DNA from: a virus
Lineage: Duplodnaviria > Heunggongvirae > Uroviricota > Caudoviricetes
IMG/VR virus record: IMGVR_UViG_3300029248_000131
DNA: 6,650 nt
Strand: one strand, 5' to 3'
Positions 6,224 to 6,650 of this stretch are shown piece after piece. The notes under the pieces are model-generated. The model was not told the DNA's origin and did no database searches. It saw only the letters and a program-made list of their open reading frames with translations. The translations under genes were made by a program, and so were the position numbers. Numbering within the stretch: position 1 is the stretch's first letter; each line of letters begins with the position of its first letter.

Positions 6224-6403
6224 CTACTCCTGTTCTTTGGCCTTGCGCCGCTGGCGGCGTTTGATCTCGCCTTTTGCGGCAGTAACTAAAAAACCAGCGG
6301 TACTTTCGCCAGGTTCTTTAAGTTGCTCAATATCATCCATTACTTCATGTGGGATTCTGACAGTTGTCATTTGTGATTTTGCGTTCTTTGCACCAGTTGC
6401 CAT
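6224..6403 (-). CDS. Small ribbon-helix-helix-like DNA-binding protein (59 aa), putative
   Basis: Internal start of ORF-track ORF 6224-6580: ATG at 6403-6401 with AGGAG (rev-comp of 6412-6416) 8 nt upstream. MATGAKNAKSQMTTVRIPHEVMDDIEQLKEPGESTAGFLVTAAKGEIKRRQRRKAKEQE has a beta-strand (TTVRIP) plus two-helix pattern and a basic tail, like Arc/MetJ-type or small prophage regulators. The 59 codons upstream of this ATG in the ORF-track ORF read as low-complexity antisense-like sequence over an AT-rich region. Confidence 0.5.
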   Translation of the reverse strand: MATGAKNAKSQMTTVRIPHEVMDDIEQLKEPGESTAGFLVTAAKGEIKRRQRRKAKEQE

Positions 6404-6469
6404 TTCTGGATCTCCTAAAAATTGGTGTATGTCAGTATACGCAAAAAAAATGATAAAAAAAGGCTTGAA

Positions 6470-6515
6470 GTGTATTTCACCAGTGAGTAAATTAAAAAGC
6501 AAAGGTGAAATACAC
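6470..6515. promoter_or_regulatory. Perfect 12-bp inverted repeat GTGTATTTCACC-N22-GGTGAAATACAC in the upstream region of the small RHH-like gene
   Basis: GTGTATTTCACC (6470-6481) and its exact reverse complement GGTGAAATACAC (6504-6515), separated by an AT-rich 22-bp spacer, in the AT-rich region with A-runs upstream of the minus-strand start at 6403. Confidence 0.35.
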
Positions 6516-6650
6516 CTGAAAGAGCAACGCCCCGCAGTGCTCGCAACACATGCAGGGCGTCTAACCACCAACGATAGCAAGAGTATCGAGGTAGCTATGA
6601 GAAATCATACCACACACCCGCAAGGGCGGGACTCGCACAACCTGAATAAA

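What the first reader, a model, noticed from the sequence alone, without database searches (positions are those of the whole stretch)
6224..6596. Small RHH-like gene with strong RBS and a perfect 12-bp inverted repeat in its upstream region
The 59-aa ORF has an AGGAG at ideal spacing and an RHH-like sequence pattern. About 70-110 bp upstream of its start lies GTGTATTTCACC-N22-GGTGAAATACAC in an AT-rich region. This looks like a small autoregulated repressor with its operator, possibly sharing a divergent control region with a + strand gene starting near 6597. Small RHH proteins in mobile elements are often antitoxins or switch regulators.
Basis: partly seen in the sequence, partly recalled or inferred. 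Interest (0 to 1): 0.45.

Follow-up and report, generated by a model that had tools for sequence, protein, structure and literature searches.

The report
Satellite repressor gene with co-evolving operators
A 59-residue YlcI/YnfO-family protein of a phage-satellite island is very probably a small ribbon-helix-helix repressor that binds three 11-bp boxes (two of them form the reported inverted repeat) placed on its own promoter and on the divergent promoter of the island's icd-like/replication operon, and its gene lies antisense inside a long read-through reading frame like the eta/kil arrangement of satellite phage P4.

Summary
The 59-aa ORF is at 6403..6224 on the minus strand, with AGGAG 8 nt upstream. 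The perfect 12-bp inverted repeat is at 6470-6481 and 6504-6515, and none of 2000 shuffles reached 12 bp.

The protein belongs to NCBIfam YlcI/YnfO, which has no known function. Its predicted topology is strand-helix-helix, and it gives weak but register-correct matches to Arc and CopG.

In 77 related loci from about 25 genera, three boxes (GTG-N5-CAC) sit at fixed positions:
- O3 lies on the ylcI -10.
- O2 lies in the spacer of a conserved divergent promoter.
- O1 lies at that promoter's -10/+1.

The central 5 bp co-vary with beta-strand residues 11-14 of the protein. They do not co-vary with Icd-like, AlpA or the protein's own C-tail.

Two further features emerged:
- ylcI is embedded antisense in a stop-free frame running from the antA stop into icd-like. 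That frame is kept open by synonymous-site constraint, as in P4 eta/kil.
- The leader hairpins belong to a minus-strand RNA antisense to the icd ribosome-binding site.

DNA binding and repression are inferred, not shown.

The parts
6224..6403 (-). ylcI-like gene: 59 aa plus stop. Predicted ribbon-helix-helix DNA-binding protein, member of NCBIfam YlcI/YnfO.
   Evidence: Translation. NF041551 64 bits against a cutoff of 30. phrog_949. 179 homologues. AF2 pLDDT 88 with strand-helix-helix topology.
6411..6415 (-). Shine-Dalgarno AGGAG of ylcI, 8 nt before the ATG.
   Evidence: Sequence.
6434..6439 (-). Putative -10 of the ylcI promoter (TATACT).
   Evidence: TATACT, TATAAT or TATAGT at -36..-31 from the ATG in 55 of 70 loci.
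6425..6435 (.). Operator box O3 (GTGTATGTCAG; CTGACATACAC on the minus strand). It overlaps the -10 and start region of the ylcI promoter and is the proposed autoregulation site.
   Evidence: A box at -32 whose core matches the other two boxes of the same locus is present in nearly all loci. Window match.
6470..6480 (.). Operator box O2 (GTGTATTTCAC), the left arm of the reported inverted repeat. It fills the -35/-10 spacer of the icd-ward promoter.
   Evidence: A box at -77 in nearly all loci. It abuts TTGAnn in 70 of 70 loci.
6505..6515 (.). Operator box O1 (GTGAAATACAC), the right arm of the reported inverted repeat. It lies about +5 to +15 from the inferred start of the icd-ward promoter.
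   Evidence: A box at -99 to -113 in related loci, direct or inverted depending on the class.
6465..6493 (+). Putative promoter of the icd-like/replication operon: TTGAAG (6465-6470), 17 nt, TAAATT (6488-6493). Analogue of P4 PLE.
   Evidence: TTGAnn in 70 of 70 loci, spacer of 17-18 nt, TAnnnT in 68 of 70. It falls below the threshold of the generic scan.
6524..6562 (-). G+C-rich hairpin (arms 6527-6536 and 6551-6560) followed by a T-rich tract on the minus strand. Proposed intrinsic terminator of a short minus-strand RNA.
   Evidence: I7. Covariation in 38 sequences. Strand test: 97.6% paired with 123 G-U cells on the minus strand, against 83.2% with 3 G-U cells on the plus strand.
6572..6588 (-). 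Second conserved stem-loop, next to or containing the complement (CCUC) of the icd Shine-Dalgarno sequence. Part of the putative cis-antisense RNA (about 6597 down to about 6518).
   Evidence: Sub-threshold SymR matches at the same place in L031 and L022.
6604..6612 (-). Putative extended -10 (TGGTATGAT) of the antisense RNA promoter, inside the first codons of icd-like.
   Evidence: Read from the sequence. TAnnnT seen by eye at about the same distance from the CAT in the listed related sequences; not counted. Not tested further.
6597..6650 (+). Start of the Icd-like (P4 Kil-like) gene, with SD GAGG at 6588-6591. It runs off the window; 67 aa in NZ_CP065970.
   Evidence: NF033153 phage_ICD_like 68 bits. 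Annotation in E. coli genomes.
5946..6650 (+). eta-like read-through reading frame. ATG 5946 (GGAGG at 5932-5936) overlaps the antA stop (ATGTGTAA). The frame is stop-free through 5946-6223, through the antisense of ylcI, through the operators and the leader, and is in frame with icd-like.
5977..6002 (-). Terminator-like hairpin with a T-run on the minus strand, about 220 nt downstream of the ylcI stop. Probable end of the ylcI transcript.

Best explanation
The 59-aa YlcI/YnfO-family protein is a small ribbon-helix-helix DNA-binding repressor of a phage-satellite island. The island has the order int, alpA, antA, ylcI (minus strand), then icd-like, primase and downstream genes.

The protein recognises 11-bp boxes, GTG-N5-CAC. 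The invariant flanks would be read by invariant residues. The central 5 bp would be read by the variable beta-strand residues 11-14.

Three boxes lie in the 193-bp divergent control region:
- O2 (6470-6480) fills the spacer of the icd-ward promoter.
- O1 (6505-6515) covers that promoter's start region. Occupancy of O1 and O2 would shut off the icd-like/replication operon and keep the island quiescent.
- O3 (6425-6435) overlaps the -10 of the ylcI promoter, giving negative autoregulation.

The reported inverted repeat is O2 plus O1.

The repressor gene sits antisense inside a translated read-through frame. That frame is coupled to antA and ends as icd-like, an analogue of P4 eta with nested kil. 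Helper-triggered, AlpA-dependent transcription from upstream could therefore bypass the repressed internal promoter. It could also interfere with ylcI expression.

Shown here: conservation, positions, co-variation, the open frame and its synonymous-site constraint, and the strand-specific RNA structure.

Inferred: DNA binding, repression, autoregulation and the induction route.
For: Family and fold:
- NF041551 YlcI_YnfO_N, E = 9e-18.
- AF2 model with pLDDT 88: extended 11-18, helix 19-28, conserved G32-E33-S34-T35 turn, helix 35-58.
- hhalign of the family profile against Arc, CopG, CcdA, MetJ and NikR gives P = 0.002-0.013 in the correct register. YlcI M12, T14 and R16 align with Arc Q9, N11 and R13. 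Controls Cro, Rop and Fis give 0.12-0.8.
- Sub-threshold Pfam matches to RHH_1, CB_ParB_C and PSK_trans_fac in some members.

Operators:
- The 12-bp repeat is not a chance feature (0 of 2000 shuffles).
- In 77 loci, boxes sit at -32, -77 and -99 to -113 from the ylcI ATG, and cores match within each locus.
- About 17 specificity classes are seen, for example QMTTV with AAATA, KKLEA with TCAGC, QQLNA with AATCG and LQVSV with AACAC.
- Pairs of loci with the same core have beta strands 94% identical. Pairs with different cores have 43%.
- The box core accounts for most of the variation at residues 11-14 (MI/H 0.89-0.98). For the equally variable C-tail the figure is 0.54-0.60.

The core does not track the neighbours:
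- Icd-like, 0.31 against 0.26 identity.
- AlpA, 0.51 against 0.54; identical AlpA proteins occur with different cores.

Promoters: TTGAnn abuts O2 in 70 of 70 loci, and TAnnnT follows at 17-18 nt in 68 of 70. TATACT-like -10 elements overlap O3 in 55 of 70.

No other exact boxes occur in the island.

Read-through frame:
- Zero stops in 68 of 68 loci across the ylcI antisense, and in 63 of 68 across the box region. The other two frames carry 200-270 stops in each of these regions.
- The codon before His or Gln never ends in T (0 of 331).
- The start is coupled to the upstream gene.
- The P4 eta/kil precedent is summarised in PMC10111431.

Against: - No experiment and no protein-DNA model: binding is inferred from co-variation, which relatedness of the loci inflates.
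- Every sequence match to RHH families is below threshold. Foldseek of the monomer model against the PDB found nothing significant (best 1xrx_A, E = 2.5).
- The promoters are consensus-level predictions. The generic scan did not call them, and the ylcI promoter has no clear -35.
- O3 in the window has two mismatches.
- Box O1 varies in distance (22-35 bp from O2) and in orientation, so cooperative binding geometry is unclear.
- The sign of regulation (repressor or activator) cannot be read from sequence. O2 lies about -45 to -55 from the inferred ylcI start, a position also typical of activators.
- The element is known to need AlpA as an activator in related PICIs, and no repressor has been reported there.
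Confidence: 0.7

Rival explanations
1. The boxes are bound by some other factor of the island or of the helper phage. YlcI co-varies with them only because the gene and the adjacent DNA are inherited as one recombination module. YlcI would then do something else.
For: The gene and the boxes are physically adjacent (under 120 bp), so linkage is expected. Co-variation counts are inflated by shared ancestry. PHROGs label the Icd-like family 'transcriptional repressor'.
Against: Within the same 59-aa protein, the variable C-tail does not track the box core (0.33 against 0.23 identity), whereas the beta strand does (0.94 against 0.43). The N-terminal 40 residues of Icd-like, encoded less than 100 bp from the nearest box, do not track it either: 24 pairs of loci have Icd-like at least 85% identical but unrelated cores. 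AlpA does not track it. The best-predicting residues, 12 and 14, align with the base-contacting Arc residues Q9 and N11.
Confidence: 0.1
2. YlcI binds the boxes but is not the maintenance repressor. It could act mainly as an activator of its own promoter from O2, as a Cro-like early regulator, or as a fine-tuner of a toxic Kil/Icd-like gene, while quiescence depends on the absence of AlpA and on the antisense RNA.
For: O2 lies about -45 to -55 from the inferred ylcI start (and the coordinates above). Related Gram-negative PICIs are controlled by the activator AlpA (PMC6092414). Many satellites carry the same leader and icd-like module without ylcI (H50-H60). A conserved antisense RNA covers the icd ribosome-binding site.
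Against: Two boxes bracket or overlap the core elements of the icd-ward promoter in all classes, and one overlaps the ylcI -10. This is the classic geometry of repression. Genomes with several copies nearly always carry different specificity classes, as expected for immunity repressors.
Confidence: 0.12
3. YlcI is the RHH antitoxin of a toxin-antitoxin pair, and the repeat is the usual autoregulatory operator of the pair.
For: Many RHH proteins are antitoxins. Weak Pfam matches to PSK_trans_fac and HicB occur in a few members. The divergent Icd-like protein is the counterpart of P4 Kil, which the paper read describes as functioning in cell killing.
Against: No conserved co-directional ORF follows ylcI; many loci have none of 30 aa or more. 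The protein has no C-terminal toxin-binding extension, only a basic tail. Two of the three boxes sit on the divergent promoter, not on the protein's own promoter.
Confidence: 0.03
4. The inverted repeat acts as an RNA hairpin (terminator or attenuator) or arose by chance.
For: Each arm is internally palindromic, and the generic scan called a weak terminator-like site at 6517..6503.
Against: In most related classes the two boxes are direct repeats with variable spacing, so no hairpin is conserved. None of 2000 shuffles gave a 12-bp repeat. The real conserved RNA hairpins lie further right, at 6524-6588.
Confidence: 0.01

Closest known systems
Mnt and Arc repressors with sar RNA in the immI region of phage P22 (recalled from memory; no paper was read here)
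   Same: Small RHH repressors acting on a compact divergent control region. One is divergently transcribed and autoregulated, with its operator overlapping the opposing promoter of an antirepressor operon. A short cis-antisense RNA covers the ribosome-binding site of the first gene of that operon. YlcI residues 12-18 (MTTVRIPHEV) align with Arc 9-15 (QFNLRWPREV).
   Different: No significant sequence relationship (hhalign P about 0.002 only). The operator form differs: three GTG-N5-CAC boxes. The controlled operon is icd-like plus replication genes of a satellite. The repressor gene is embedded antisense in a translated frame.
Satellite phage P4 left-operon control: eta with nested kil, internal promoter PLE, CI RNA immunity (Forti et al. 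1999, as summarised in PMC10111431)
   Same: [quoted passage not shown] The element type is the same: P4-type integrase, AlpA, primase.
   Different: No C4/CI or isrK RNA was detected. Instead there is a protein repressor gene on the opposite strand with three operators, plus a minus-strand antisense RNA. P4 Kil was not shown here to be homologous to this Icd-like protein; the phage search hit only one record.
E. coli K-12 YlcI (DLP12) and YnfO (Qin)
   Same: Same NCBIfam domain model, NF041551.
   Different: They are uncharacterised; the literature search found no functional study. They sit in lambdoid prophage remnants (from memory). Their context was not examined here.
Stl/Rpr master repressors of Gram-positive PICIs (SaPIs)
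   Same: Functional analogy: a repressor gene transcribed divergently from the excision and replication genes and next to int, holding the island quiescent (PMC6092414).
   Different: Stl proteins are large helix-turn-helix proteins relieved by helper-phage proteins. There is no sequence or fold relationship. Relief of YlcI is unknown and may be transcriptional (read-through) rather than by an anti-repressor.
SymR, cis-antisense RNA of symE (Rfam RF01809). Relevant only to the side feature at 6518-6597.
   Same: About 75-80 nt, transcribed from inside the 5' end of the target gene, complementary to its SD and start codon, ending in an intrinsic terminator. Sub-threshold matches of 39 and 36 bits occur in two related loci.
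   Different: Below the gathering score of 61, and no match in the window itself. The target is an Icd/Kil-like protein, not SymE.

Membership tests
NCBIfam NF041551 YlcI/YnfO family | Score above the curated cutoff of the family model. | tested here: met
   64 bits against a cutoff of 30, E = 9.2e-18, residues 9-50. RefSeq annotates the identical gene as a YlcI/YnfO family protein.
Ribbon-helix-helix (Arc/MetJ/CopG) superfamily | Strand-helix-helix topology of about 45 residues. | tested here: met
   AF2 monomer model, pLDDT 88: extended 11-18, helix 19-28, helix 35-58. This is a prediction, not a solved structure.
Ribbon-helix-helix (Arc/MetJ/CopG) superfamily | Conserved G-x-S/T/N turn between the two helices. 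| tested here: met
   In the 31-sequence alignment A1, G32 is at least 90% conserved, E33 and S34 are invariant, and T35 is at least 90% conserved. In the broader 41-sequence alignment A2, only E33 of these reaches 90%.
Ribbon-helix-helix (Arc/MetJ/CopG) superfamily | Significant sequence or profile match to a curated RHH family, or to a solved RHH structure. | tested here: inconclusive
   Pfam RHH_1 matched only 3 of 41 members, best E = 0.003, below the cutoff. CB_ParB_C matched 4 of 41. The PDB profile search gave 3no7 at E = 0.1 as its best hit. Foldseek found nothing significant.
Ribbon-helix-helix (Arc/MetJ/CopG) superfamily | Homodimer forming a two-stranded antiparallel sheet that enters the major groove. 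| not testable with these tools
   Only monomer prediction was available. Indirect support: residues 12 and 14, which would face the DNA, co-vary best with the operator core.
Type II toxin-antitoxin, RHH antitoxin | An adjacent co-transcribed toxin gene. | tested here: not met
   No conserved same-strand ORF lies downstream of ylcI in 70 loci; many have none of 30 aa or more. Nothing is annotated there in NZ_CP065970.
P4-type eta/kil nested-gene control | A long frame that begins upstream of an internal promoter, is coupled to the upstream gene, and ends as a short Kil/Icd-like protein. | tested here: met
   The window frame is open from 5922, with ATG 5946 overlapping the antA stop. The frame is open 411-1128 nt upstream of the icd ATG in 45 of 62 loci. 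Stop depletion. Synonymous-site constraint. Coupled starts.
P4-type eta/kil nested-gene control | CI/C4-type immunity RNA with seqA/seqC targets. | tested here: not met
   No C4 or isrK match in the window at E up to 1, nor in 8 related loci at E up to 0.1.
P4-type eta/kil nested-gene control | A Rho-dependent terminator in the leader that is suppressed by translation of eta. | not testable with these tools
   Inferred only from the selection against stop codons.
Gram-negative PICI / P4-like satellite (the host element) | P4-type integrase, AlpA, a primase-type replication gene, small size, and no phage lysis or tail genes. | tested here: met
   Integrase domains and AlpA. In NZ_CP065970 the roughly 12-kb island between abgR and smrA carries int, an HTH/AlpA gene, antA, ylcI, icd-like, a primase, ProQ/FinO and PerC genes, and DUF2213.

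The most novel reading that the evidence does not exclude
In a large subgroup of enterobacterial phage satellites, protein-based immunity is built into the P4-type eta/kil scaffold.

- A tiny RHH repressor gene is encoded antisense inside a translated read-through frame.
- Helper-triggered, AlpA-driven transcription and translation would then do three things: escape Rho termination, bypass the repressed internal promoter, and silence the repressor by convergent transcription.
- A SymR-like antisense RNA adds a third lock on the toxic Icd/Kil-like gene.
- About 17 repressor/operator specificity classes define heteroimmunity groups, which lets several satellites share one cell.
Probability: 0.3. 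Interest if true: 0.75.

Novelty: new variant of a known kind. Interest (0 to 1): 0.6.

Why it matters

The analysis here contributes four things:
- It assigns a testable function (operator-specific repressor) to the uncharacterised YlcI/YnfO family.
- It gives the operator sequences and promoter geometry for about 17 specificity classes. These form a natural set of orthogonal small repressor/operator pairs.
- It offers a residue-to-base map for a minimal RHH protein.
- It documents a clear case of a protein gene fully embedded antisense in a second translated frame, with measurable synonymous-site constraint (0 of 331 T before His/Gln codons).

The module is common. It occurs in at least 749 of 5426 complete E. 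coli genomes and in about 25 genera.

Tried and rejected
- **Rfam on the window and 8 related loci:** no C4, isrK or other curated RNA in the control region. Only sub-threshold SymR matches in two loci.
- **Foldseek of the monomer model against the PDB:** nothing significant.
- **phmmer and profile searches of PDB sequences:** nothing at or below E = 0.1.
- **tblastn of YlcI against 50,697 deposited phage genomes:** no match. Icd-like hit a single 16.5-kb record. P4 itself could therefore not be compared directly.
- **Forti et al. 1999 (PMC94026):** not held in the library. I relied on the summary in PMC10111431.
- **CFT073 genome:** I fetched two stretches (1.395-1.480 Mb) to see whether the experimentally studied EcCICFT073 carries ylcI. 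I found only the icd prophage, so this was a dead end (one search was a range error).
- **Toxin partner:** none found.
- **Additional boxes elsewhere in the island:** none beyond chance.
- **Generic promoter scan:** did not call either proposed promoter. The promoters rest on conservation across loci.
- **Long plus-strand ORF as a shadow of ylcI codon usage:** considered and rejected. The stop depletion extends through non-coding DNA, and synonymous resampling keeps the frame open in only about 41% of trials.
- **PGAP's 123-aa Icd-like start at window-equivalent 6429:** probably not a real start. It lies upstream of the inferred promoter and within the operator region.
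Full report

Yes. The minus-strand ORF 6403..6224 encodes MATGAKNAKSQMTTVRIPHEVMDDIEQLKEPGESTAGFLVTAAKGEIKRRQRRKAKEQE. AGGAG lies 8 nt upstream of the ATG.

GTGTATTTCACC (6470-6481) and GGTGAAATACAC (6504-6515) form a perfect 12-bp inverted repeat with a 22-nt spacer. None of 2000 dinucleotide-preserving shuffles of the intergenic region 6404-6596 reached 12 bp; the maximum was 10.

**2. Context**

The window carries:
- a P4-type integrase (2673-3887);
- an int-alpA RNA match just under threshold (3931-3991);
- a 251-aa ORF;
- AlpA (4809-5075);
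- an AntA-domain protein (5153-5953);
- the small minus-strand gene;
- a plus-strand gene starting at 6597.

In E. coli FDAARGOS_1058 the stretch 6224-6650 is 100% identical. There the island lies between abgR and smrA and continues with an Icd-like gene, small ORFs, a primase, ProQ/FinO and PerC genes, and a DUF2213 gene. This is a Gram-negative PICI / P4-like satellite.

The divergent ylcI/icd-like pair is common. 1786 of 5426 complete E. coli genomes have a match, and 749 of them cover at least 80% of the query.

**3. The protein**

- It passes the NCBIfam model YlcI_YnfO_N (64 bits against a cutoff of 30) and matches phrog_949, which has no assigned function. No Pfam family passes threshold.
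- The family is small: 88 clusters at 50% identity among 1.84 billion proteins.
- No functional study turned up. Papers mention it only as an accessory gene of cf-PICIs.
- The AF2 model is confident (pLDDT 88). It shows an extended segment 11-18, helix 19-28, a turn at G32-E33-S34-T35 that is invariant or nearly so among close relatives, and helix 35-58. This is the ribbon-helix-helix topology.
- Direct tests of RHH membership are only suggestive. Pfam RHH_1, CB_ParB_C and PSK_trans_fac match a few family members below threshold. The PDB profile search gives 3no7 at E = 0.1. Foldseek finds nothing significant.
- hhalign of the family profile against Arc, CopG, CcdA, MetJ and NikR gives P = 0.002-0.013 in the correct register, against 0.12-0.8 for three non-RHH controls.
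- In that alignment, YlcI M12, T14 and R16 correspond to Arc Q9, N11 and R13, the base-contacting residues of Arc (that role is from established knowledge of Arc, not tested here).

**4. The repeat is a set of operator boxes that co-evolve with the protein**

One scan of 185,579 species genomes returned 77 loci from about 25 genera, including Escherichia, Yersinia, Pectobacterium, Xenorhabdus, Serratia and Gilliamella.

Nearly every locus has three boxes of the form GTG-N5-CAC (GTG-N6-CAC in the most distant proteins). They sit at fixed distances from the ylcI ATG: -32, -77 and -99 to -113. Within a locus the three cores agree. Between loci they differ, and the differences follow residues 11-15 of the protein:

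| Residues 11-15 | Box core |
|---|---|
| QMTTV | AAATA |
| QLFTV | AAACA |
| QKLQA | GACTC |
| LQVSV | AACAC |
| KKLEA | TCAGC |
| QQLNA | AATCG |
| QSVTA | TCTTA |
| QQIVS | AATGC |
| QS/ALKS/A | TGGCC |
| QKMSA | GCACC |

There are about 17 classes in all.

- Locus pairs with the same core have 94% identical beta strands (residues 11-19). Pairs with unrelated cores have 43%.
- The box core accounts for almost all of the variation at positions 11-14 (MI/H 0.89-0.98). For the equally variable C-terminal tail the figure is 0.54-0.60.

The neighbours serve as controls:
- The N-terminus of Icd-like does not track the core (0.31 against 0.26 identity). 24 pairs have near-identical Icd-like proteins but unrelated cores.
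- AlpA does not track it either (0.51 against 0.54). Identical AlpA proteins occur with different cores.

In the window's class, boxes O1 and O2 are inverted relative to each other. In most other classes they are direct repeats, and the spacing varies from 22 to 35 bp. The conserved unit is therefore a protein-binding site and not an RNA hairpin.

The window's third box (GTGTATGTCAG, 6425-6435) has two mismatches. No further boxes occur in the island beyond chance.

**5. Promoter geometry**

On the plus strand, TTGAnn abuts O2 in 70 of 70 loci, followed at 17-18 nt by TAnnnT in 68 of 70. In the window this is TTGAAG (6465-6470), 17 nt, TAAATT (6488-6493). O2 therefore fills the spacer, and O1 lies at the -10 or start region of the icd-ward promoter.

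On the minus strand, TATACT, TATAAT or TATAGT lies at -36..-31 from the ATG in 55 of 70 loci and overlaps O3 by two bases. In the window this is 6439..6434.

This is the geometry of repression of the divergent operon together with negative autoregulation. Both promoters are predictions; the generic scan missed them.

**6. Not an antitoxin**

No conserved co-directional ORF follows ylcI. A terminator-like hairpin on the minus strand at 6002..5977 probably ends its transcript.

**7. Unexpected: the gene is embedded antisense in a translated frame**

The plus-strand frame of ATG 6597 has no stop codon back to 5922. It starts at ATG 5946, with GGAGG at 5932-5936, and overlaps the antA stop as ATGTGTAA.

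- In 45 of 62 related loci the same frame is open for 411-1128 nt upstream of the icd ATG.
- In all of those loci, the distance between the two ATGs equals 1 modulo 3.
- Across 68 loci this frame has zero stops in the ylcI antisense in 68, in the box region in 63, and in the leader in 60. The other two frames carry 146-273 stops in each of these regions.
- Inside ylcI, the codon before His or Gln never ends in T (0 of 331, although T makes up 22% of third positions). A T there would create a stop in the antisense frame.
- Synonymous resampling keeps the frame open in only about 41% of trials, against 75 of 75 unique genes observed.
- The first ATG of the frame usually has a GAGG-type SD and overlaps the stop codon of the upstream gene of 80-330 aa.

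The translated product does not look like a protein. Only its last 48 residues match a family, phage_ICD_like.

This mirrors P4 eta with nested kil. In P4 an internal promoter lies inside eta, Kil is a truncated form of Eta, full-length eta is translated only from an upstream late promoter and is coupled to the alpA homologue, and translation of eta prevents termination (PMC10111431 citing Forti 1999).

I infer that the frame is kept open so that AlpA-dependent read-through transcripts are translated and escape polarity. Such transcription would run antisense through ylcI.

**8. The leader hairpins belong to a minus-strand RNA**

Two stem-loops (6524-6562 and 6572-6588) are supported by compensatory changes in 16 of 22 pairs. 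They are strand-specific: 97.6% of cells pair on the minus strand, including 123 G-U cells, against 83.2% with 3 G-U cells on the plus strand.

A T-rich tract follows on the minus strand. TGGTATGAT (6612..6604) is a plausible extended -10. Together these features suggest an antisense RNA of about 80 nt covering the icd SD and start codon. Two related loci give sub-threshold SymR matches at this position. No C4/CI or isrK RNA was found.

**9. Mechanism proposed**

YlcI dimers occupy O1 and O2 to silence the icd-like/replication operon, and occupy O3 to limit their own synthesis. The antisense RNA adds a translational lock on the Icd/Kil-like gene. Helper-induced AlpA drives read-through of the eta-like frame.

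The positions, conservation, co-variation, frame constraint and RNA strand asymmetry are shown. Binding, the sign of regulation and the induction route are inferred.

Genomes with several copies nearly always carry different classes. Xenorhabdus innexi and X. mauleonii each have four. This is consistent with immunity groups.

**10. Novelty**

RHH repressor/operator pairs are a classic kind. P22 immI (Mnt, Arc and sar RNA) is the nearest architectural analogue; I recall this from memory and did not check a paper.

What appears new:
- a function for the YlcI/YnfO family;
- a candidate repressor for Gram-negative satellites, for which the existence of a repressor was called unclear (PMC6092414);
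- the series of specificity classes;
- the antisense embedding of the gene in an eta-like frame.

I found no paper describing any of these.

Noticed in passing
window 5946-6650 (+): A stop-free reading frame runs from the antA stop, through the antisense of ylcI and the operators, into icd-like. It is conserved in 45 of 62 related loci and is maintained by synonymous-site constraint inside ylcI (0 of 331 codons before His/Gln end in T). It is an analogue of P4 eta/kil.
   Followed up: yes
window about 6518-6612 (-): Putative cis-antisense RNA of about 80 nt against the icd-like ribosome-binding site and start codon. It has two stem-loops with covariation that pair far better on the minus strand (123 G-U cells against 3), a T-tract after the second stem-loop, and a candidate extended -10, TGGTATGAT. 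SymR matches below threshold occur at the same place in L031 and L022.
   Followed up: partly
window 6429-6596 (+); L001 12480-12851: RefSeq/PGAP annotates the Icd-like protein as 123 aa, starting at the equivalent of window 6429. That start lies inside the operator region and upstream of the inferred promoter. The family domain covers only the last 48 aa. The starts that make sense are 6597 (nested) and 5946 (long frame).
   Followed up: partly
window 3931-3991 (+): Match to the Rfam int-alpA RNA (RF02996) at 33.8 bits, just under the gathering score of 35.8. The same family passes threshold in related loci L021, L026 and L068.
   Followed up: no
window 4008-4763 (+): A 251-aa ORF between int and alpA with only weak coiled-coil-type matches and no family assignment.
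   Followed up: no
window 1-2600, including ORF 1516-2088 (-): No ORF longer than 79 aa apart from one 190-aa ORF (phrog_4350, unknown function). No tRNA gene anywhere in the window, so the integration site of the island is not a tRNA here. In NZ_CP065970 the related island lies next to abgR.
   Followed up: no
L015/L028/L031/L066 (Xenorhabdus innexi); L017/L035/L048/L061 (X. mauleonii); and other genomes with several loci: Co-resident copies of the module in one genome carry different repressor/operator classes. The only exception is two short contigs of Gilliamella Choc5-1. This is consistent with heteroimmunity but is not statistically decisive.
   Followed up: partly
E. coli genome hits H50-H60: The part to the right of the boxes (terminator hairpin, leader, icd-like start; window about 6519-6650) also occurs in many E. 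coli genomes without ylcI. In O157:H7 genomes only a 55-nt unannotated piece is present. The repressor-plus-box module and the icd leader module are therefore separable.
   Followed up: no
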